A DNA stretch of 64,000 bases from an uncultured Rickettsiales bacterium (GTDB lineage Bacteria > Myxococcota_A > UBA796 > UBA9615). The stretch is taken from positions 6,078 to 70,077 of the forward strand of contig CAZBDA010000002.1 of assembly GCA_964490445.1 (NCBI GenBank), given 5' to 3'. The notes under the pieces were generated by a model. It did no database searches. It was given only the letters and a program-made list of their open reading frames with translations, and was not told where the DNA came from. A program made the position numbers and the translations under genes. Positions 25,649-35,180 of the stretch are shown here, piece after piece; position 1 is the first letter of the stretch; each line of letters starts with the position of its first letter.

Positions 25649-26511
25649 CAGAAGTTCATCCCAATACGAAAGCCAGGAAACGGCAGAAGGAGGGCTCGAC
25701 TGGTACCCGAAGGGTCCACAATCACTGCCGGGACAAGCCCCATACCACCACTCAGTAGCAAGCCGATCGGCGCGTCGTAGCGAATGCCGACAAGGATGTA
25801 AGGAAGCACCCGAGCGAGTTCCTGCCCAACGGCCCGGAACCCCTGAGCATCGACCTGAGTTACCAGGTTCCCGGCCAGAAAGGAGAGACCAATCCCGACA
25901 ATGGGCGTCAGTCGCCGCGGTACCGGCTGTAGTTGCGCCTCGGCGAACAGCCCGAGCAAAGCACTCTCACCGCTCTCGAGGACAGCAGCGAATCCACCGA
26001 TCCCGCCGCCTATCGCCAGCAGCCAGTGGGGTCGAAACTGGACCGCAAGGCCAAGACCCAGAGTCGGTCCTCCCAGGCTCAATGCGGCACTACCCCTTCG
26101 GTAGGCACGGGGATTTGCGGCTCTTCGCCGGGCCTGTGCGCTGGCCTTCGCCGTCGCAACTGCCGTGCTCGCGGCAGGCTTCGGCGAGGCCAAAGGGGCG
26201 GCAGTACCTGCCCCCTGAGCGCGACGACTCAACACGGCGAGCGACTCCGCCAGGTAATTGCGAGCGCTGCGGTGCTGCGGCTGGCGCTCGAGCACCTCGC
26301 GAAAGGACGCGACTGCACCCTCGAACTCGCCGGCAGCGAACAGCCGATACCCCTCGAGGAACAGGTGCTCGACCGCCTCGGTGTGGGAACTGGAACTCTC
26401 GTGTGCGGCGTCCTGCTCGCCCTCCTCATCGTGAGCCTGTGCCAGCACGGGCAGACTGAGGGCCAGGGCCACCGCCAGGGCGGACCATGGAATTGCTGTT
26501 GTTGAGTTCAC
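25648..26511 (-). CDS. secreted TPR-containing protein with Gly-rich beta C-terminus (possible OM beta-barrel)
   Basis: Signal peptide; TPR-like helices (FAAGEFEGAVASFREVLERQPQH); C-terminal alternating hydrophobic strands ending ...FRIGMNF. Start/stop coupled to the HlyD-like gene. Confidence 0.4.
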   Translation of the reverse strand: MNSTTAIPWSALAVALALSLPVLAQAHDEEGEQDAAHESSSSHTEAVEHLFLEGYRLFAAGEFEGAVASFREVLERQPQHRSARNYLAESLAVLSRRAQGAGTAAPLASPKPAASTAVATAKASAQARRRAANPRAYRRGSAALSLGGPTLGLGLAVQFRPHWLLAIGGGIGGFAAVLESGESALLGLFAEAQLQPVPRRLTPIVGIGLSFLAGNLVTQVDAQGFRAVGQELARVLPYILVGIRYDAPIGLLLSGGMGLVPAVIVDPSGTSRALLLPFPGFRIGMNF

Positions 26512-26582
26512 AGCAGCAGTCTACTTCGCCGAGAGCGCACCCTGCCAAGTCACTTCGATGTGGTCTACACTCTGCATCGCCC

Positions 26583-27695
26583 ATGAAAGGACTACCAGCC
26601 CGGACCACAGCTCTCTGCACAGCGCTGCTGCTGTTCCTGTCCGCCCCGGGAACAGCAAGGGCTTACGGTGAAGACACCGGCGGCGCACCGAGCCTCGAGG
26701 AGCGTGCGGTACACCTGTTCACGGACCGATTACGCGTGGAGCCTGATGCCACCGACGCGGAGTTCTCCGACTACCCGCCTGTCGCGCCCCTGATCTACAA
26801 CAGCGAACTCGGAGCAGCCGCTCGCTTCCACGCCGACGATATGGCCGAGAATGACTGCTTCCAGCACGAGAGTTGCGACGGTACTGACTTCGGCGAGCGC
26901 CTATGGCGCTACTACGACGGCATGGGCATCGGAGAGAACATCGCACTCGGCTCCCCCGACGCGCTCACGGTTGTCTTCGAGGGATGGCTCTACTCGCCAC
27001 CGCACCGCGACAACATGCTGGCAAGCGACTGGCGGGAATTGGGGACCGGCTTCTCGGACAATGACGGGGGCCCACCGCTGTGGGTGCAAGACTTCGGCTT
27101 CCGTGGTGGCGAGGTCGAACCGATCACCACCTCATCGACCCACTGGCCGCTGCGTCCGGCAGCTAACGAAGAGGTGTCCTTCTTCCTGGCAGCCTACGAC
27201 CCGGACGGCACGCCCGAGGGCGCCGACCTCCTCTTTGGCGGCGTCCGTTACCCGATGGAGGACGACCGGGGCGCCGACGGGAAGCAGACCTTTGCCCGGG
27301 CTCTTGATGCCGATGTTCTGTCCTGGGTCTTGTCTGAGGGCGACTACCGCGAGGATTGCCCGAGCTACTACTTCGAGTTGACCCGCGCCGACGGCAGCGT
27401 GGTCAGCTATCCCAGCGAAGGAGGCCTGTTGATTCCCCTGGGAGCCTTGGGAGGCAGCGACTGCGAGCCCTGGAGCGGGTCGCGGCCGACAGTTCGCAGT
27501 GGCTGCGGCGGCGACTCCGGCCTCACTGGCACCGGCAGCGGCTGCCAGACAGATCCCGACCGGGTCGGCGGTCCCGACGACAACACTCAGAATTCAGTCA
27601 ACTACTCGAACTGTGCGCTGGCACCTCAGCCGCGGCAGGGCAACTGGGCAGTGCTCGCCGTCCTCGCTCTGCAACTACGCAGACGGCGGCGCTGA
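26583..27695 (+). CDS. CAP/SCP/PR-1 domain secreted protein with MYXO-CTERM-type tail
   Basis: Signal peptide MKGLPARTTALCTALLLFLSAPGTARA. CAP-domain motifs (HADDMAENDCFQHES.., GENIALG, YSPPHRDNML). C-terminal CALAP..WAVLAVLALQLRRRRR. Confidence 0.65.
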   Translation: MKGLPARTTALCTALLLFLSAPGTARAYGEDTGGAPSLEERAVHLFTDRLRVEPDATDAEFSDYPPVAPLIYNSELGAAARFHADDMAENDCFQHESCDGTDFGERLWRYYDGMGIGENIALGSPDALTVVFEGWLYSPPHRDNMLASDWRELGTGFSDNDGGPPLWVQDFGFRGGEVEPITTSSTHWPLRPAANEEVSFFLAAYDPDGTPEGADLLFGGVRYPMEDDRGADGKQTFARALDADVLSWVLSEGDYREDCPSYYFELTRADGSVVSYPSEGGLLIPLGALGGSDCEPWSGSRPTVRSGCGGDSGLTGTGSGCQTDPDRVGGPDDNTQNSVNYSNCALAPQPRQGNWAVLAVLALQLRRRRR

Positions 27696-28964
27696 GTCGA
27701 CAAAGGTCGCCGCGAAGACGGCATCAATAGCAGCACGCCCCGACTCGCTCAGCTTCCGGGTTCCCGTGCCGCAGACCCGCACCGACGTGATCCGCGGGGT
27801 ATCCACTTTTCGCCAGCAAGCCTCCCGAACGCTCCAACGGAACCAGCTCTGCTCTTCCTGGTCGTAGACCCACAACGCCTTGTTCCAGACTCGAGCCAAC
27901 TCACCAGCCCAGCCAGTCCCACCCGAGAGCGTGTCGTCGTCCTGGATCGAACCGACGACAAGTACCTGGTCGGCGCTATGCACCTGGTGCCAGAGCGTCT
28001 GCAGGACACGCCGGAACGCGTGGGTAGAGTCGTAGCCTCGGTGCATGCGCCGGGACGCATAGGCCAGCGACACATCGCCCTGGCGCAGCTCGCGCTCGCT
28101 GAGCATGACCAGACCGCGCTCACGCGCAGGCTCGTGTCCCGGATAGCTGTAGTTGACTTCCGCCAGGCCGTAGCGCTCGGCGACCTCTCCAAAGTAGGCC
28201 TCGCTACCGGCTGCCGCACCCGAGTACAGGGTGTAGGCGTCCGGGCTGTAGGTGACCGGCAAGCCCGTTCCATTGCCCTCGAAGACCGCACGCATGTGGC
28301 TGGGCTCGAGCAGCATGGGTTCCGAGGACGAGTCGGACTCCTGGGTCTGGCCACACAACTGGAGCTCGACGTGCTCGCCCCGAGACCTCAACTGGACCGC
28401 AAGATCAATGAGACCGGCAACCGGCTCGAAAGCAGCAGGCAACTGCGCAGGACTCGACTCGCGAGAAGCGGGCTCACTCAGCGTGGTGACCCAGAGTCGG
28501 GTGCCGTGGGCCCAGGCGAGCGCCTTGTAGGACGCCACCTCGGCTCGGCTGAGTGCGCTCCAGTCGAGGCCATCGAGCAGAATTACCTCGGGACGAAAAT
28601 CCGCGTGCTCAGCAAGTATGCCCAGCAACTGCGTGAGCTTCTGCGTGCTGAAGCCACCAGGAGTGTAGCTCTGCACCATGCGGTGGCGCTGTACAGCTGT
28701 GCGCGCGGCAATCGGGTCAGGCAGGGCGCCGCGACTGTCGTAGTCGGCAAGCAACTCCTCGTAGCGAGAACAGATCTCGGCGATGGACTCACCCTCGCTG
28801 ACGTGCAGCACGCAGCGCCTGCCGAGCAGATCTTCCAGGCCGAGATGCACCAGCAGCGCGGTCTTGCCGAGACCCGCCGGGGACAGGATAAGGCCCAACT
28901 CTCCAGCGGTGAGGCCGCCACTGCTGGCGCGCTCGATGAGACTGAGTGGGCTTCCGTCGAGCAT
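27675..28964 (-). CDS. KaiC/RecA-like ATPase domain fused to a SLOG (DprA/Smf/LOG-like) Rossmann domain protein
   Basis: N-terminus: GGLTAGELGLILSPAGLGKTALLVHLG...CVLHVSEGES (KaiC/RadA-like P-loop layout). C-terminus: ..YSGAAAGSEAYFGEVAERYG.. and ..VLVVGSIQDDDTLSGGTGWAGELARVWNKALWVYD.. (SLOG/DprA-type pattern). 6-bp gap to the upstream EF-G gene. Confidence 0.45.
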   Translation of the reverse strand: MLDGSPLSLIERASSGGLTAGELGLILSPAGLGKTALLVHLGLEDLLGRRCVLHVSEGESIAEICSRYEELLADYDSRGALPDPIAARTAVQRHRMVQSYTPGGFSTQKLTQLLGILAEHADFRPEVILLDGLDWSALSRAEVASYKALAWAHGTRLWVTTLSEPASRESSPAQLPAAFEPVAGLIDLAVQLRSRGEHVELQLCGQTQESDSSSEPMLLEPSHMRAVFEGNGTGLPVTYSPDAYTLYSGAAAGSEAYFGEVAERYGLAEVNYSYPGHEPARERGLVMLSERELRQGDVSLAYASRRMHRGYDSTHAFRRVLQTLWHQVHSADQVLVVGSIQDDDTLSGGTGWAGELARVWNKALWVYDQEEQSWFRWSVREACWRKVDTPRITSVRVCGTGTRKLSESGRAAIDAVFAATFVDSAPPSA

Positions 28965-28970
28965 CGTCCT

Positions 28971-31073
28971 CTACCTCCTGCCAGCGGCTTCTTGTTCCCG
29001 GGCAGCCTGCTTCCGGGCAATGATATCCTCAGAAATCTGCGCCGGCACCTGATTGTAGCGACTGAACTCCATGGTGAAACTCGCCTTGCCCTGGGTCGAC
29101 GAACGAATCACAGTCGCGTAACCAAACATCTCTGACAGCGGGACTTCGGCCTCTATGCGAGCGAAGCCCTCGCCCTCCTGGGTGCCGCTGATCTGCCCTC
29201 GTCGCTGAGTGATCGTGGCCACCATCGCACCGAGGAACTCCGTCGGCCCCTCCACCTCGAGGCGCATCACCGGCTCGAGAATCACCGGCCCAGCACTGGA
29301 ATAGGACGCGCGGAAAGCGCCGCGGGCAGCTTCCTGGAAGGCCACATCGCTGGAGTCGACCGAGTGGTGCCCACCGTCGAGTAGTTCAACCCGGACACCG
29401 CATACAGGGAAACCGAGCAAGGGACCCTTGGCGAGCATGGACTTGAAGCCCTTGTCGACCGCCGAGATGAACTCCTTGGGGATGTTGCCTCCCTTAACCT
29501 TGTCCTCGAACTCGTAGTCGCCCTCCGCGAGCGGCACCAGCTTGCCGACGACCTTGCCGTACTGGCCCGAACCACCCGTCTGCTTCTTGTGGGTGTAATT
29601 AAAGGCGGCCTCGCAGGTGATCGCCTCTCTGTAGGCCACTCTCGGCGGCGAAGTGGTGACGTCGGCGTTGTACTCGCGACGCATCCGCTCGATGTAGACA
29701 TCCAGGTGCAACTCACCCATACCCGCAACGATCGTCTCGTTGCTCTCAGGGTCGAGGCTGACCTGGAAGGTCGGGTCTTCCTTGGTGAAACGGTTCAGCG
29801 CCTTGGACATGTTGTCCTGGGCCTTGTTGTCCACTGGATTCAGGGACACCGAGATCACGGGGTCGGGCACGTGCATCGACGACATGACGCACTCGGTTGT
29901 CCCGTCCGTAAAGGTGTCACCACTGCGACAGTCGACGCCGAACATCGCGACAATGTCCCCGGCAATGGCCTCGTCGATATCCTCCATCTCGTCCGAATGC
30001 ATGCGTACGACCCGGCCAACCTTGAGACGTTTGCCAGTACGCACGTTGACGATAAAGCCGTCACGGCGAAGCGTGCCGCAGTAGATGCGCAGATAGGTCA
30101 GCTGGCCGTAGCGGCCATCTTCGAGCTTAAAGGCCAACATCACGAGCGGACCGTCCGGATCCGAGGGCAGCACAGTGGGCTCACCCTCAACTCCCTTGTT
30201 GAGCGGCAGCATCTCGTTCGGGACCTCGGTGGGATCGGGCAGATAGGCCACCACGGCGTCCAGCAGGGGCTGAACGCCCTTGTTCTTGTAGGCGGATCCG
30301 CACAGGACGGGGCACAACTGGAGGCTGATCGTGGCGTCGCGAATGGCCTGCTGCAGCAACTCCACCGGCACGGCGTCTTCGAGGATGGCAACCATCAGGT
30401 CATCGTTGAACATCGAGACCGCATCGAGCATCGCCTCGCGGGCAACATCGGCCTCTGCCTGCATGGCATCGGGAATCTCTTCGAGACGCAACTCTTCGCC
30501 ACTCGGTCCGTCGAAATAGATCGCCTTCATCTGGACCAGGTCGACCACGCCATTGTGGTCGGACTCCAGGCCAATCGGGATCTGCAGCATCACCGCGTTC
30601 AGGTTGAGCTTCTCGCGCAGCTGCTCGGTGACACGCCCCGGGTTGGCACCGGAGCGATCGCACTTGTTGACGAAGGCGATGCGGGGAACGTTGTAACGAC
30701 GCATCTGCCGATCGACAGTAAGAGACTGGCTCTGTACGCCGGCCACGCCGCAGAGCACCAGCACGGCCCCATCGAGGACGCGCATTGCCCGCTCCACTTC
30801 GACGGTAAAATCCACGTGTCCCGGAGTGTCGATGATGTTGACGTGATGGCCTTGCCACTCGCAGTGGGTGGCGGCGGACTGAATGGTGATACCTCGTTCC
30901 CGCTCGAGATCCATCGAGTCCATCTTGGCGCCGACACCATCCTTGCCACGTACGTCGTGGATGGCGTGAATCCGTTCGGTGTAGAACAGAATGCGCTCGG
31001 TCAGGGTTGTTTTCCCCGAATCGATATGGGCCGAGATTCCGATGTTCCGGTGCGTAGACAGATTCGCGGACAT
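28971..31073 (-). CDS. fusA: elongation factor G (EF-G paralog, not in a str-operon context)
   Basis: GTPase G1-G5 motifs ([18 protein letters not shown]), EF-G domains II-V, 700 aa. No rpsL/rpsG/tuf neighbours, so probably a second EF-G copy. Confidence 0.9.
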
Positions 31074-31180: not shown

Positions 31181-31915
31181 CTATAGCGCTTCGCCGACCA
31201 ACGACAACTCTTTCAAGACACTGTCAGGATGCAGCCCACTGAGCCTGTCAGCGGCGAGACCGGCAGCTTCTGCCATGCTCCCGGCGAACACCACATACTC
31301 CCGATCTTCGCCGGCCACATCAGCCACAACACGGTAGGCAAACCTCTCAGCGCCTCGCACCGACACCGCCTTCGCGGACACTGGTCGGGCGGTCTCGGCG
31401 GGAGAAGCCGCAACGTCGGCGAGCTCGTCCCCGCGCCAACGCGCCGGGATCCCACGCCGCACCCGGTAGGCACGCACATTCTCGGGAGTCACTCCCGCCT
31501 TGTCGGCCAGCTCCCGATCCGAGATATCACCGAGTAACTCCAGGTACGGATCGAGGCGGGACGCGCGACGGCGACGCATCTTGCGCCTCTTGCGCTTGGT
31601 TGGACGCACCTTGATTTTCTTCGCTGCTCGGCGCTGCTGCTTCGCCTGCAGCGCCTCGAGGCTCTCACCCCGCCACGCGGCTGGGATGCCGCGGCGCAAG
31701 CGATAGGTTCGGACATTCTCGGTGCTCACCCCGGCCTTCTCGGCCACTTCCTTGTCGGATAGGGCGCCGATTACGTCGTGGAAGTCGCCGAGGGCCGACT
31801 TCCGGGGAGCAAAGGACTTGACGGGCAAGACGGGATCCCTCAGGCGAACTACCTGAACGCCTCGATGACGGTCCAGGGCTCGTCCTTGTACTTGCTGGCA
31901 TCCCCTTCGACCCAC
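31181..31915 (-). CDS. basic protein with two tandem HTH-like repeats (putative DNA-binding)
   Basis: Internal duplication: LGDFHDVIGALSDKEVAEKAGVSTENVRTYRLRRGIPAAWRGE vs LGDISDRELADKAGVTPENVRAYRVRRGIPARWRGD, separated by a Lys/Arg-rich linker. GTG start. The 5' end overlaps the neighbouring ORF by about 67 bp, so the start is uncertain. Confidence 0.4.
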   Translation of the reverse strand: MGRRGCQQVQGRALDRHRGVQVVRLRDPVLPVKSFAPRKSALGDFHDVIGALSDKEVAEKAGVSTENVRTYRLRRGIPAAWRGESLEALQAKQQRRAAKKIKVRPTKRKRRKMRRRRASRLDPYLELLGDISDRELADKAGVTPENVRAYRVRRGIPARWRGDELADVAASPAETARPVSAKAVSVRGAERFAYRVVADVAGEDREYVVFAGSMAEAAGLAADRLSGLHPDSVLKELSLVGEAL

Positions 31916-32985: not shown

Positions 32986-33194
32986 TCGACTCCACTCCGG
33001 GGCGCGGCCCCTACTGATAGCAAAGACGCTATCACAGCTGATCGGCACGCGCTATCAGCCAAGCTATCAAACTCGTCGCAAAGATCCTGTGGGACTTTCA
33101 CTTGTCTTTGCGACCGCGGCGCAGCATCATTCCAGCCGACATCAATCACAGTTACGCGTGTGCAGGGTGTGAAGGTGCACCCTGGGAGGTTTCA

Positions 33195-34010
33195 ATGCGT
33201 CCGATACAGGCTCTTCTCTCCGCCCTGCTTCTGCTCAATCTCGGTGGCTGCGAGGCTCTGAATCCCGATCCTGATGAGGATGGCCTGACCACTGAGTTCG
33301 AGGAGAGCATCGGCACCGACCCGCTGCTGAATGACACCGACGGAGACGGCTTCGACGACGCGACCGAGGTGCTGACCTACTTCTCCCCACGCAACCAAGA
33401 CGATCACCCCTATGAAGGCGCGTATCCCAGGGGGCCGCTCATGAACGGCGACGCCTGGGACGAGTACACCGACGATGCCGGCTGGGACGAGGGCGAGATC
33501 AGCAGAGGCTGGAAAGTGACCGACCAGCACGGTGACGAAATCAAGCTGAAGCGATTCTTCGGCAGCGTAGTCCTCATCGACATGAGTTCCGAGTGGTGCG
33601 GCCCCTGCCGTTCGACCGCCGAGACCCTCGACGAGGAGTACCAGGACCGCAAGGAAGACGGCTTTGTCATCATCCAATTGCTGCTCGACGGCCTGGGCAT
33701 GGGGGACAGGAACCCCCAGGGAGATCGCTGGATCGAGGAATTCGACATCACCTTCCCCCTGATTGAAGATGGTGACCTGCACGCAGCCCCGCACTACATT
33801 CCGTCGGGTAGTTTCGGAATTCCCAACTACACCGTCATCGATCGTCAGCACCAGATCGACACCTGGTACCAGGCAGGCGGCGAGCCCCCGTGGGAGCTCA
33901 TCGACGACCTGCTCGACGAAGATCGACCTGACGTAGACTATGTGCTCCCCGAGAATGCCGACGAGCTCTACGAGAGTCTCGAAATCAACCCCAACTCCTG
34001 GATCAACTGA
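33195..34010 (+). CDS. TlpA/ResA-like thioredoxin-fold lipoprotein with N-terminal Asp-rich calcium-binding-type repeats
   Basis: RBS GGGAGG at 33184. Lipobox LNLGGC|EA. D.D.DG..D repeats (NDTDGDGFDDATE). Redox motif WCGPC. Confidence 0.7.
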   Translation: MRPIQALLSALLLLNLGGCEALNPDPDEDGLTTEFEESIGTDPLLNDTDGDGFDDATEVLTYFSPRNQDDHPYEGAYPRGPLMNGDAWDEYTDDAGWDEGEISRGWKVTDQHGDEIKLKRFFGSVVLIDMSSEWCGPCRSTAETLDEEYQDRKEDGFVIIQLLLDGLGMGDRNPQGDRWIEEFDITFPLIEDGDLHAAPHYIPSGSFGIPNYTVIDRQHQIDTWYQAGGEPPWELIDDLLDEDRPDVDYVLPENADELYESLEINPNSWIN

Positions 34011-34091: not shown

Positions 34092-35180
34092 ATGAACGGA
34101 CTCCAGCGAAAGGCACCTGCAATGCAACGCTTGCTTCTTACCCTCGTCTCCTTACCCCTGCTACTGGTCGGCTGCGGCCCCAGAGACACGGACGAGGACT
34201 ACCTGCTCGACGATTTCGAGATCGCAATCGGAACCAATCCCGAGTTGGCGGACTCCGACGGTGATGGCTTTTCCGATACCGAGGAGTACCTGCAGTACTT
34301 CGACCCAACCGATGAGGACGACTTCCCCTACACCGGTGGCTACCCGCGCCTTCCACTGCCCGCCGAGATCGACGATGAGGGCTGGGACGTGGGCGAAGTC
34401 AGCCATGACTGGGACAGCGATGACTCCGAAGATCAGCACGAAGAGGCCGTCAACATCCACAAGTTCTACGGCAACGTCGTGGTCATCGACATCGCAGCCG
34501 AGTGGTGCGGACCCTGCCGACAGGCCGCTCCCGAGGCCGAGCAGGAGTACCAGGACTTCATCGACAGGGGCTTCGTGGTCATCAACATACTGCTCGACGG
34601 ACTGAGCCAGTCGGAAGAGCCCGACCTTGACCGCTGGACAGAGGACCTGGAATTGACCTTCCCGGTAGTAGGTGACCACGACCAGTCGATCGCCAGCAAC
34701 TACATCGCGTCTTCAGGGAGCTTCGGCATCCCGAACTTCAGCATCCTCGACCGCGAGTTGAACATCCGCGCCAAGCAGATCAACCCCGTCGACTGGGAGT
34801 TGGTCGGTGAACTCCTCGACGAGGATCCGCCGCAGGTAGACTGGCCTCTGCCCGAAAATGCCGACGAGATCCGCGCCGAGTTGGGGATCTCCATCACCGC
34901 TTCCACTGCGGATTACATCGTCCCCGGCGAGGGCATCCCCGAAGCCTCGGGTGGCGCCAACCTGAACGGTGGCGGTGGAGCCAGCACAACCGATGGCCCT
35001 GAGACCGGCGGAGAGGTCTCCAACGAGGCTGCGGAAGCCGTTGTGCCTGGCGAGTACGCAGGCCCTCCGTTCGGCGGTGCCGGTTCCGGCTGCGCGGTCG
35101 CTGCGAACTCCTCCAGTACCGGCCTCGTGTCACTGGCATTGGTGCTTGTCGGCATGCTCGGTCTGCGCCGCCGCCGCTGA
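34092..35180 (+). CDS. TlpA/ResA-like thioredoxin-fold lipoprotein paralog with MYXO-CTERM-type tail
   Basis: Lipobox LLLVGC|GP, DSDGDGFSDTEE repeats, WCGPC motif. C-terminal GSGCAVA...LALVLVGMLGLRRRR. Paralogous to 33195..34010. Confidence 0.7.
   Translation: MNGLQRKAPAMQRLLLTLVSLPLLLVGCGPRDTDEDYLLDDFEIAIGTNPELADSDGDGFSDTEEYLQYFDPTDEDDFPYTGGYPRLPLPAEIDDEGWDVGEVSHDWDSDDSEDQHEEAVNIHKFYGNVVVIDIAAEWCGPCRQAAPEAEQEYQDFIDRGFVVINILLDGLSQSEEPDLDRWTEDLELTFPVVGDHDQSIASNYIASSGSFGIPNFSILDRELNIRAKQINPVDWELVGELLDEDPPQVDWPLPENADEIRAELGISITASTADYIVPGEGIPEASGGANLNGGGGASTTDGPETGGEVSNEAAEAVVPGEYAGPPFGGAGSGCAVAANSSSTGLVSLALVLVGMLGLRRRR

What the first reader, a model, noticed from the sequence alone, without database searches (positions are those of the whole stretch)
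27675..31073. KaiC/RecA-like ATPase fused to a SLOG (DprA/LOG-like) domain, translationally coupled to an EF-G paralog
The 429-aa protein starts with a KaiC/RadA-type P-loop domain (SPAGLGKTALLVHLG...VLHVSEGES) and ends with a Rossmann segment carrying a SLOG/DprA-type SGGTG signature (VLVVGSIQDDDTLSGGTGWAGELARVWNKALWVYD). SLOG domains are ligand (nucleotide)-sensing modules that recur in conflict and signalling systems, and DprA itself is the archetype. The gene sits 6 bp downstream of a second-copy EF-G outside the str operon, which implies co-transcription. An EF-G2 / RecA-like-SLOG pair is not a textbook arrangement.
Basis: partly seen in the sequence, partly recalled or inferred. Interest (0 to 1): 0.5.

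Follow-up and report, generated by a model that had tools for sequence, protein, structure and literature searches.

The report
Uncharacterised ATPase partner of mitochondrial-type EF-G
The 429-aa gene is a real fusion of a RecA/KaiC/DnaB-like ATPase with a SLOG nucleotide-binding domain, and its ATPase half belongs to a large, unnamed protein family encoded immediately after the mitochondrial-type elongation factor G (spdEFG1) in at least four bacterial phyla, which points to an undescribed accessory factor of that translation GTPase.

The parts
28971..31073 (-). spdEFG1-type elongation factor G (700 aa), upstream gene of the pair
   Evidence: TIGR00484 scores 944 bits, above its cutoff. All five EF-G Pfam domains are present. 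The best PDB match is mitochondrial EF-G1 at 794 bits, against 647 for T. thermophilus EF-G. GTPase motifs are intact ([17 protein letters not shown]; read).
30936..30944 (-). KDG insertion in switch I (EF-G residues 44-46), the diagnostic indel of the spdEFG1 subfamily
   Evidence: The sequence reads [14 protein letters not shown]. The diagnostic is defined in Margus et al. 2011, PMC3150367. GKD[G/D/E]VGA is present in all EF-Gs of the related loci whose switch-I region could be aligned.
28965..28979 (-). Junction: Shine-Dalgarno AGGAGG (28974-28979) in the last two sense codons of EF-G, TAG stop (28971-28973), 6-bp spacer (28965-28970)
   Evidence: In 77 related loci the EF-G stop to ATPase start distance has a median of 24 bp or less, several junctions overlap (TGATG), and a GGAGG is usually in the gap.
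28281..28964 (-). N-terminal RecA-superfamily (DnaB/KaiC/RadA-like) P-loop ATPase domain, residues 1-228
28860..28883 (-). Walker A, S28-P-A-G-L-G-K-T35
   Evidence: G31, G33 and K34 are present in 56-57 of 59 long forms and 51/51 short forms.
28788..28796 (-). Catalytic-acid position after strand 2 (E57-G58-E59 of VLHVSEGES)
   Evidence: E59 aligns with the second Glu of RadA's VSGEES (alignment). Across the family the position is D/E in 42/59 long and 26/51 short forms.
28569..28586 (-). Walker B, V127-I-L-L-D131-G132
   Evidence: D131 is present in 58/59 long forms and is D/E in 49/51 short forms. G132 is present in 57/59 long and 44/51 short forms.
28236..28280 (-). Inter-domain linker (residues ~229-243); the short forms end just before it, after the conserved L-D/E-P-x-T motif
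   Evidence: pLDDT is below 50 at residues 231-235. The LDPxT motif ends the standalone ATPases.
27678..28235 (-). C-terminal SLOG-fold domain (residues 244-429)
28188..28223 (-). SLOG glycine-rich loop after strand 1: S248-G-A-A-A-G253-S-E255-A-Y-F-G259 (GxE signature)
   Evidence: G249, G253, E255, F258 and G259 are invariant in 59 sequences. A GxD/E motif is the predicted substrate-binding signature of the YpsA clade (PMC6459960).
27897..27923 (-). Second SLOG motif G348-G-T-G-W-x-x-E355-L356
   Evidence: Invariant in 59 sequences. The resemblance to the LOG 'PGGxGTxxE' motif is my recollection and inspection; no structure-based alignment was made.
27756..27770 (-). Family-specific invariant G399-T-G-T-R403 motif
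   Evidence: G399, G401, T402 and R403 are invariant in the 59 fusion proteins. In the 13-sequence C-domain alignment G401, T402 and R403 stay invariant while G399 varies.

Best explanation
The 429-aa protein is the Myxococcota/Acidobacteriota version of an uncharacterised accessory NTPase that works with spdEFG1, the mitochondrial-EF-G1-like translocase. SHOWN: the two genes form a self-contained bicistronic cassette. The downstream gene is translated from a Shine-Dalgarno embedded in the end of the EF-G gene. The ATPase-after-spdEFG1 arrangement recurs in Spirochaetota, Desulfobacterota, Myxococcota and Acidobacteriota while everything around it changes. The ATPase has a DnaB/KaiC/RadA-type RecA fold with invariant Walker A Gly/Lys and a near-invariant Walker B acid, but only a patchily conserved catalytic acid. 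The C-terminal SLOG domain keeps both nucleotide-binding glycine motifs and several invariant charged residues. One lineage has fused a GTPase-dead remnant of the EF-G G-domain to the ATPase-SLOG protein. INFERRED: the ATPase binds ATP (or another NTP) and acts more as a slow switch or assembly platform than as a processive motor. It engages the G/G' domain of spdEFG1, on or off the ribosome, to tune that factor's nucleotide cycle, its ribosome engagement or its turnover. In the fused forms the SLOG domain binds, and possibly cleaves, a nucleotide-derived ligand, most likely of the NAD+/ADP-ribose type judging from its closest relatives. That would gate the ATPase and couple spdEFG1-driven elongation to a metabolic, stress or infection signal.
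For: Linkage: EF-G (65-75% identity) lies immediately upstream on the same strand in all 78 testable genome loci; the 2 others are cut at the contig end. No other neighbour is shared by more than 13 of the 80 loci. The gap is a median of 24 bp or less, with overlaps and an SD. Reverse direction: 61 loci among L083-L162 carry the ATPase downstream of spdEFG1, and 12 loci with room lack it. Four independently retrieved short-form loci all have EF-G upstream, including the isolate Treponema sp. R8-4-B8. Family size: at least 2,915 short-form proteins. Folds. Motif conservation. Rosetta-stone fusion P0284 (degenerate G domain + ATPase + SLOG), found on 4 contigs, two of which, from different samples, were examined and have identical gene order. 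NAD/ADPr context of the nearest SLOG relatives: ART-PolyVal + NADAR + SLOG in P0365, and ART-PolyVal + SF1 helicase + SLOG in P0362. Published view that YpsA-like SLOG domains sense or process ADPr derivatives: PMC9503650 and PMC6459960. In Myxococcales spdEFG1 usually coexists with a canonical EF-G and often lacks spdEFG2, which is compatible with a specialised, regulated elongation factor.
Against: There is no direct evidence of a physical or functional interaction; it all rests on gene order and one fusion. Twelve of 73 spdEFG1 loci have no ATPase within 4 kb, so spdEFG1 can do without it nearby. No EF-G residue distinguishes partner-bearing from partner-less spdEFG1, so there is no sign of co-adaptation. 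The best structural neighbours of the ATPase are DNA helicases and recombinases, and the SLOG domain's named sequence relatives are 'DprA-like', which fits a nucleic-acid role equally well. P0284 could be a decaying gene rather than a functional fusion. The ligand assignment rests on domain neighbours in distant (31-38% identical) homologs.
Confidence: 0.5

Rival explanations
1. The protein is an enzyme and not a sensor-regulator. The SLOG domain would be a LOG-like N-glycosidase or ADP-ribose-processing hydrolase that removes a nucleotide-derived modification from spdEFG1 or from the ribosomal GTPase-associated centre, or that degrades a toxic or signalling nucleotide. The ATPase would provide substrate engagement.
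Confidence: 0.15
2. The protein is a nucleic-acid-processing factor: a minimal DnaB/RadA-type ring ATPase joined to a DprA-like single-strand-binding Rossmann domain. It would act in DNA recombination, repair or replication, or as an RNA translocase on mRNA or rRNA. Its position after spdEFG1 would reflect co-expression only.
Against: The pairing with EF-G is conserved in at least four phyla while no DNA-metabolism gene is conserved nearby. There is no DnaB N-domain, no RadA zinc finger, KNRFG motif or Lon domain, and no DprA flanking domains. The catalytic acid is poorly conserved, which is unexpected for a motor. The EF-G-remnant fusion P0284 points to EF-G and not to DNA.
Confidence: 0.15
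3. The pair is a conflict or defence module. The SLOG domain would sense an infection-derived nucleotide signal (as in Thoeris ThsA), and the ATPase/EF-G pair would be an effector or a guarded target.
For: SLOG domains of the YpsA-like clade act as cADPR-isomer sensors in Thoeris (abstracts; PMC9503650). The same SLOG subtype occurs in phage and polyvalent proteins with ART domains.
Against: There are no PADLOC hits for either protein. The cassette occurs in at least 570 species genomes (all of the 80 examined have it), next to a highly conserved (65-75% identical) translation factor, with non-defence and variable neighbours. No effector domain such as a nuclease, NADase or pore is present, and no TIR or cyclase signal generator lies nearby.
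Confidence: 0.05

Closest known systems
KaiC-like / DnaB-C-terminal / RadA(Sms) branch of RecA-superfamily ATPases (Pfam AAA_25, KaiC 'ATPase', DnaB_C; small single-domain examples PH0284, SSO2452, FlaH/ArlH)
   Different: It scores below every curated threshold (window protein 19.6 bits against 27 for AAA_25; NCBIfam KaiC_arch models score about 25 against about 249). It has its own invariant residues (P6, H54, Y68, R95, P125, W158, C-terminal L-D-P-x-T). The catalytic acid is not conserved. It has no second KaiC domain, no DnaB N-domain, and no RadA Zn-finger or Lon domain. Its invariable genomic partner is an EF-G, which is not reported for any of these families in the literature I could search.
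SLOG superfamily, YpsA-like side (PDB 3imk 'putative molybdenum carrier protein' of Syntrophus; Pfam YAcAr; B. subtilis YpsA; ThsA SLOG)
   Different: There is no significant match to any Pfam SLOG model (YAcAr E 0.006-0.02 in a minority of members) or to any PDB sequence. It has extra family-specific elements: the conserved LSxRELxxGDVSL insert, LQTLWH and GTGTR. It is fused to a RecA-like ATPase. Its ligand is unknown.
DprA/Smf (recombination mediator, RecA loader) and ShosA
   Different: PF02481 does not match (E 0.2 in 1/13). DprA's N-terminal SAM-like and C-terminal winged-helix domains are absent. There is no competence or recombination gene context. The partner ATPase is not RecA.
LOG / PpnN (YgdH) nucleotide N-glycosidases
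   Different: No HMM match. The structural similarity is much lower than to the 3imk type. Catalytic equivalence was not tested.
spdEFG1 / mitochondrial EF-G1 (Atkinson & Baldauf; Margus et al. 2011; Atkinson 2015)
   Same: The upstream gene is a typical member. It has the KDG switch-I insertion, is most similar to mtEFG1, and occurs in a delta-proteobacteria-type lineage.
   Different: The published descriptions I could read (PMC3150367, PMC4342817) discuss the pairing with spdEFG2 and the str-operon context, and do not mention a conserved downstream ATPase gene. In Sorangium, Myxococcus and Stigmatella spdEFG1 occurs without spdEFG2.

Membership tests
RecA-superfamily P-loop ATPase (KaiC/DnaB/RadA branch) | RecA-like alpha/beta core fold | tested here: met
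RecA-superfamily P-loop ATPase (KaiC/DnaB/RadA branch) | Walker A GxxxxGK[ST] and Walker B hhhhD | tested here: met
   SPAGLGKT and VILLD131. K34 is present in 57/59 and D131 in 58/59. Both are conserved in short forms.
RecA-superfamily P-loop ATPase (KaiC/DnaB/RadA branch) | Catalytic glutamate after strand 2 | tested here: inconclusive
   It is present in the window protein (E57, E59; E59 aligns with RadA's second Glu). Across the family it is D/E in only 42/59 long and 26/51 short forms.
RecA-superfamily P-loop ATPase (KaiC/DnaB/RadA branch) | Score above the curated threshold of a family model (AAA_25, KaiC, DnaB_C) | tested here: not met
   The window protein scores 19.6 bits against a cutoff of 27. 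NCBIfam gives no hit for the long form and hits far below cutoff for short forms. Profile-to-PDB E-values are significant (5e-8), so superfamily membership holds but membership of a named family does not.
RecA-superfamily P-loop ATPase (KaiC/DnaB/RadA branch) | Ring or filament oligomer with a trans-acting arginine finger | not testable with these tools
R95 is invariant in the family but its role is unknown.
KaiC proper / RadA(Sms) / DnaB proper | Accessory domains: duplicated KaiC domains; RadA Zn finger, KNRFG and Lon domain; DnaB N-terminal domain | tested here: not met
   There is a single ~225-aa ATPase domain followed by SLOG. No such Pfam or NCBIfam domains were found.
SLOG superfamily | SLOG-type Rossmannoid fold | tested here: met
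SLOG superfamily | Glycine-rich nucleotide-binding loop after strand 1 and a second GGxG...E/T motif | tested here: met
   SG249AAAG253SE255 and G348GTGWxxE355 are invariant in 59 sequences. Their position relative to the strands was read from the DSSP string.
SLOG superfamily | Significant match to a curated SLOG sequence model | tested here: inconclusive
   Pfam YAcAr is only weak (best E 0.006, in 8/59 and 4/13 members). PHROG 768 'DprA-like' gives E 2.9e-4 for the window domain, and 2e-14 and 5e-17 for homologs P0384 and P0375.
YpsA-like clade of SLOG | GxD/E substrate-binding signature (PMC6459960) | tested here: met
   G253-S-E255 is invariant. Its equivalence to YpsA G53/E55 is inferred from motif position; no structure-based alignment was made.
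DprA/Smf | Match to PF02481 and the DprA domain set; RecA-loading role | tested here: not met
   PF02481 gives E 0.2 in 1 of 13. No flanking DprA domains are present. Function is not testable here.
LOG phosphoribohydrolase | PGGxGTxxE motif with catalytic Arg/Glu; TIGR00730-type model match | tested here: not met
spdEFG1 (for the upstream gene) | KDG insertion in switch I; groups with mtEFG1 | tested here: met
   GKDGVGA is present. mtEFG1 scores 794 bits against 647 for bacterial EF-G. No phylogenetic tree was built.
EFG II / EF-G2 (for the upstream gene) | Score above the EF-G2 model cutoffs | tested here: not met
   NF009377 scores 388 against 890, and NF058620 scores 405 against 1000.
Known anti-phage defence systems | Match to any PADLOC model | tested here: not met
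   No hits for either protein at E up to 1.

The most novel reading that the evidence does not exclude
The RecA/KaiC-like ATPase is a previously unrecognised, dedicated translation factor. It would be an obligate or conditional cofactor of the mitochondrial-type translocase spdEFG1, for example controlling its release, recycling or nucleotide state on the ribosome. It would be ancient enough to be shared by Spirochaetota, Desulfobacterota, Myxococcota and Acidobacteriota. In Myxococcota and Acidobacteriota it would have gained a SLOG sensor that places elongation under the control of an NAD+/ADP-ribose-derived signal.
Probability: 0.3. Interest if true: 0.85.

Novelty: new variant of a known kind. 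Interest (0 to 1): 0.66.

Why it matters
EF-G paralogs are a long-standing puzzle. It is not clear why many bacteria keep a mitochondrial-type EF-G1 next to, or instead of, the canonical factor, or what specialises it. The published surveys I could read describe spdEFG1 only in relation to spdEFG2. This analysis shows that spdEFG1 has another, far more tightly linked companion: an unnamed ATPase family with thousands of members, translationally coupled to it in at least four phyla. In Spirochaetes spdEFG1 is thought to be the only translocase (Margus 2011), so there the ATPase accompanies an essential factor. This gives a concrete, testable candidate for a new accessory factor of translocation. 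The SLOG-fused form in the window offers a handle on regulation by nucleotide-derived ligands, and it links a housekeeping translation factor to a domain type otherwise known from phage and defence NAD/ADP-ribose biology. Cultured hosts exist (Sorangium, Anaeromyxobacter, Treponema isolates), so genetics and biochemistry are feasible.

Tried and rejected
1. Curated libraries. Pfam, NCBIfam and PADLOC gave no family for either domain of the 429-aa protein beyond sub-threshold P-loop hits.

2. Sequence search of the C-domain profile against PDB. Only two chance hits came back, so SLOG membership rests on structure and on PHROG 768.

3. afdb50 fold search. The library was not available.

4. 'Standalone SLOG' hits. 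P0256 proved to be a truncated gene call of an intact fusion, and P0275 lies on a 983-bp contig that says nothing. Only the more distant P0364 is clearly standalone.

5. Co-adaptation test. No EF-G position is at least 85% conserved in partner-bearing spdEFG1 and at most 25% conserved in the 11 partner-less ones. This negative result rests on few and phylogenetically confounded negatives.

6. Single origin of the SLOG fusion. NJ trees of 110 ATPase domains separate 103/110 by form but do not give clean monophyly, so the question stays open.

7. RNA and regulatory features. There are no Rfam families or tRNAs in the window, and no promoter-like site or minus-strand terminator around the pair.

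8. Literature. Searches for the pairing (EF-G + KaiC-like + gene neighbourhood; spdEFG/EF-G paralog in Myxococcus or delta-proteobacteria) found nothing relevant. The founding SLOG paper (PMC4678834) is not held, so I could not check whether this fusion is listed there.

9. The apparent exceptions L012, L017 and L070. These turned out to be frameshifted or interrupted EF-G genes and not missing ones.

10. Considered and rejected: 'EF-G2/EFG II' for the neighbour, KaiC proper, RadA/Sms, DnaB proper, DprA proper and LOG proper for the domains, and a defence system for the pair. See the membership tests.


Full report
**1. What is in the sequence**

On the coding strand the junction reads GGC AGGAGG TAG AGGACG ATG. 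A perfect Shine-Dalgarno therefore occupies the last two sense codons of the upstream gene, 9 nt before the downstream ATG. No terminator-like site lies between the genes on that strand. Both ORFs show the codon-position GC pattern of real genes in this 64% GC window. The window is part of an 86-kb contig from JGI metagenome 3300007513. Two neighbouring proteins carry MYXO-CTERM-type tails, one at and one just below the model's cutoff, which fits a Myxococcota-like source. Its nearest fusion-bearing relatives, however, are MAGs with unreliable labels (L001/L002).

**2. The upstream gene is spdEFG1, not 'EF-G2'**

- It has all five EF-G domains and passes the EF-G equivalog model TIGR00484 (944 bits). 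It fails the EF-G2 models.
- Against solved structures it is clearly closest to mitochondrial EF-G1 (794 bits, against about 647 for Thermus EF-G and about 630 for E. coli EF-G).
- It carries the three-residue KDG insertion in switch I ([14 protein letters not shown]). Margus et al. 2011 use this insertion as the diagnostic of the spdEFG1 subfamily, the bacterial sister of mtEFG1 (PMC3150367).
- The window contains no rpsL, rpsG or tuf and no second EF-G.
- Whether the source organism also has a canonical fusA cannot be tested from one contig. Atkinson 2015 (PMC4342817, Additional file 2) lists EFG + EFGII + spdEFG1 for Sorangium and Stigmatella, EFG x2 + spdEFG1 for Myxococcus xanthus, all four types for Anaeromyxobacter, and spdEFG1 + spdEFG2 + EFGII with no canonical EFG for Haliangium.
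- So 'second copy outside the str operon' is the usual situation in this group, and spdEFG1 there often lacks its supposed partner spdEFG2.

**3. The 429-aa protein: both domain calls hold**

Curated sequence libraries say almost nothing. AAA_25 and AAA_16 score below threshold for residues 8-137, nothing matches the C-half, and there are no NCBIfam or PADLOC hits.

An alignment of 59 homologs (A1) gave an AlphaFold model with mean pLDDT 90.1 and two domains joined by a short low-confidence linker at residues 231-235.

*N-domain.*
- A profile of the family reaches gp41 (5e-8), RadA (4e-6) and KaiC (7e-6) by sequence.

*C-domain.*
- Sequence support is weak but consistent. Pfam YAcAr (a SLOG family) is the only recurring C-domain hit. 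PHROG 768 'DprA-like' matches the window domain at E 2.9e-4, and its homologs P0384 and P0375 at 2e-14 and 5e-17.

**4. Motifs**

*ATPase half.*
- Walker A (S28-PAGLGKT) and Walker B (VILLD131-G) are present in the window protein and nearly invariant in the family.
- The acidic catalytic position (E57/E59 in VLHVSEGES, with E59 aligned to the second Glu of RadA's VSGEES) is present here. Across the family it is D/E in only 42/59 fused forms and 26/51 short forms.
- Family-specific invariant residues shared by short and long forms are P6, H54, Y68, R95, P125, W158 and a C-terminal L-D/E-P-x-T.

*SLOG half.*
- This is the more conserved half. Twenty-nine of the 30 invariant columns in the 59-sequence alignment lie in it.
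- They include the glycine-rich loop SG249AAAG253SE255..F258G259, whose GxE matches the GxD/E substrate-binding signature described for the YpsA clade (PMC6459960).
- They also include G348GTGWxxE355L, G399TGTR403, and R309, Q322, W325 and H326.

**5. Gene neighbourhood, forward direction**

- A scan of one genome per species found at least 570 relatives of the fusion. The 80 best are mostly Myxococcota (Sorangium spp., Polyangiaceae, Byssovorax, Haliangium, Anaeromyxobacter, Nannocystineae, Bradymonadales) and Acidobacteriota (Vicinamibacterales, Marinacidobacterales, UBA6911), with some MAGs labelled otherwise.
- In 78 of 80 loci an EF-G that is 65-75% identical to the window's lies immediately upstream on the same strand. 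The other two contigs end at the gene.
- Three seemingly partial cases are frameshifted or interrupted EF-G genes.
- All-against-all clustering of ORFs from the 80 loci shows that nothing else is conserved. The next most common neighbour occurs in 13 loci.
- The EF-G stop to ATPase start distance has a median of 24 bp or less, with several overlapping TGATG junctions and a GGAGG in the gap.
- Independent gene calls agree: a 2-bp gap in a 6.9-Mb genome.

**6. Gene neighbourhood, reverse direction: the main new result**

- Scanning metagenome contigs with the EF-G returned 80 spdEFG1 loci (62-72% identity, all with the GKD[G/D/E] insertion, GC 0.39-0.73).
- An HMM of the ATPase domain finds a homolog directly downstream in 61 of them. 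Twelve loci with at least 1 kb of downstream sequence have none, and the rest are truncated.
- Only six of the partners are ~420-430-aa fusions. About fifty are standalone proteins of 224-241 aa that align to residues 5-224 only, and no SLOG gene lies nearby.
- This short family is large, with at least 2,915 proteins scored. Nearly all are labelled 'hypothetical protein', and no curated model fits it.
- Named members come from Desulfobacterales, Desulfobulbales and 'Deltaproteobacteria' MAGs. For the AT-rich branch they come from many Treponema, including the isolate Treponema sp. R8-4-B8.
- Four loci retrieved independently through the short protein all have a full EF-G immediately upstream.
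- The conserved unit is therefore spdEFG1 plus the ATPase, in Spirochaetota, Desulfobacterota, Myxococcota and Acidobacteriota. The SLOG domain is an addition in the last two phyla.
- Whether it was gained once is unresolved.

**7. Relatives of the SLOG domain**

- An exhaustive phmmer search of 1.84 billion representatives with the C-domain found 1,424 hits, 100 of them below 1e-30.
- Besides the fusions, these include giant proteins of 2,800-4,050 aa at 31-38% identity. P0365 has ART-PolyVal, NADAR and then this domain directly after NADAR. P0362 has ART-PolyVal, an SF1 helicase, DUF7831 and then this domain.
- In the viral structure library the domain matches uncharacterised phage proteins over its full length (TM 0.79-0.82). 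These include a 185-aa protein of jumbo phage Atu_ph07 and segments of crAss-like and Caudovirales proteins of more than 1,000 aa.
- This is the context in which Aravind and colleagues predict that YpsA-like SLOG domains sense or process ADP-ribose derivatives (PMC9503650).
- A true standalone homolog (P0364) lies downstream of dnaB.

**8. A Rosetta-stone fusion**

P0284 (738 aa) has residues 1-270 that are 43% identical to the window EF-G's G domain but with dead GTPase motifs (GNIDAGSS for [13 protein letters not shown] for DTPGH). Residues 318-736 are a complete ATPase-SLOG homolog (37% identity). It is carried on four contigs, and the two examined, from different samples, show identical gene order, so it is not an assembly artefact. 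It suggests that the ATPase works with the G/G' part of EF-G, although a decaying gene cannot be excluded.

**9. Interpretation**

Gene order conserved across four phyla in otherwise unrelated surroundings, translational-coupling geometry, and a domain fusion are the classical signatures of functional partnership. I therefore take the protein to be an accessory NTPase of spdEFG1 (confidence about 0.5 for that general statement). The invariant Walker A with a variable catalytic acid argues for a nucleotide-dependent switch or platform rather than a motor. The SLOG domain, with intact nucleotide-binding loops and NAD/ADPr-associated relatives, most plausibly adds a ligand input.

What the ATPase actually does to EF-G is unknown. 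No EF-G residue distinguishes partner-bearing from partner-less spdEFG1, and 12 of 73 spdEFG1 loci lack the gene nearby.

The rivals are:
- an enzymatic (LOG-like or ADPr-processing) role for the SLOG half;
- a nucleic-acid-processing role suggested by the helicase/recombinase and DprA resemblances;
- a defence role, which is poorly supported.

**10. Novelty**

Both folds are known, and spdEFG1 is known. The specific ATPase family, this SLOG subfamily, their fusion, and above all the conserved spdEFG1-ATPase cassette have no curated model. They are absent from the EF-G paralog papers I could read and from my literature searches. The founding SLOG paper could not be consulted. I rate it a new variant of known kinds, of real interest to people working on translation factors and on the origin of the mitochondrial translation apparatus.

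Noticed in passing
L168 6001-8217 (protein P0284); also L169: A 738-aa protein in which a GTPase-dead remnant of the EF-G G-domain (P-loop GNIDAGSS, DxxG lost) is fused to a complete ATPase-SLOG homolog. It is carried on 4 contigs; the two examined, from different samples, have the same gene order, next to feoAB genes.
   Followed up: partly
L017 6866-9333: In a 'Candidatus Marinacidobacterales' chromosome the spdEFG1 gene upstream of the fusion is interrupted near codon 525 by an insertion of about 2.5 kb (mobile element, intron or intein not determined), besides frameshifts.
   Followed up: no
P0360, P0373, P0383 (2,840-2,884 aa; no locus fetched): Giant proteins carrying the same SLOG subtype (32-35% identity) have no Pfam match at all at E 1e-3. 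Their relatives P0365 and P0362 have ART-PolyVal, NADAR and SF1-helicase domains. These are probably polyvalent proteins of mobile elements with largely undescribed domains.
   Followed up: partly
L170 6001-6555 (protein P0364): A true standalone homolog of the SLOG domain (184 aa, 37% identity) lies about 700 bp downstream of the replicative helicase dnaB in an rpsF-rplI-dnaB cluster. This is a second case of the SLOG subtype sitting next to a DnaB-type RecA-fold ATPase.
   Followed up: no
L121, L126, L139, L148 (just downstream of EF-G): Several spdEFG1 loci that lack the ATPase instead have a convergent gene for a Lys/Ala-rich histone-H1-like protein (KKAAKK repeats) right after EF-G. The lineage was not identified.
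   Followed up: no
window 33102-34010 and 34092-35180 (+): Tandem paralogous secreted thioredoxin-fold (ResA/TlpA-like, CGPC) proteins with Asp-rich DxDxDG calcium-binding-type repeats near the N-terminus. The second ends in a MYXO-CTERM sorting signal (20.1 bits, cutoff 20).
   Followed up: partly
window 26487-27695 (+): A CAP/YkwD-domain secreted protein with a MYXO-CTERM-like tail (19.6 bits, just under the cutoff). It converges on the 429-aa gene and overlaps its 3' end by 21 bp (27675-27695).
   Followed up: partly
window 31181-31915 (-): Directly upstream of EF-G on the same strand is a 215-244-aa protein with two copies of a short MerR-like HTH repeat (residues ~52-85 and ~129-161) separated by a Lys/Arg-rich stretch. 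It gives weak hits to the NCBIfam 'carph-isopro' domain and the PADLOC mad1 model. It is not conserved next to the pair in other loci.
   Followed up: partly
(Atkinson 2015, Additional file 2): In Sorangium, Myxococcus and Stigmatella spdEFG1 is present without spdEFG2, contrary to the 'mirrored distribution' usually quoted. In these genomes the conserved companion of spdEFG1 appears to be the ATPase described here (shown for Sorangium spp.; not checked for Myxococcus or Stigmatella).
   Followed up: partly
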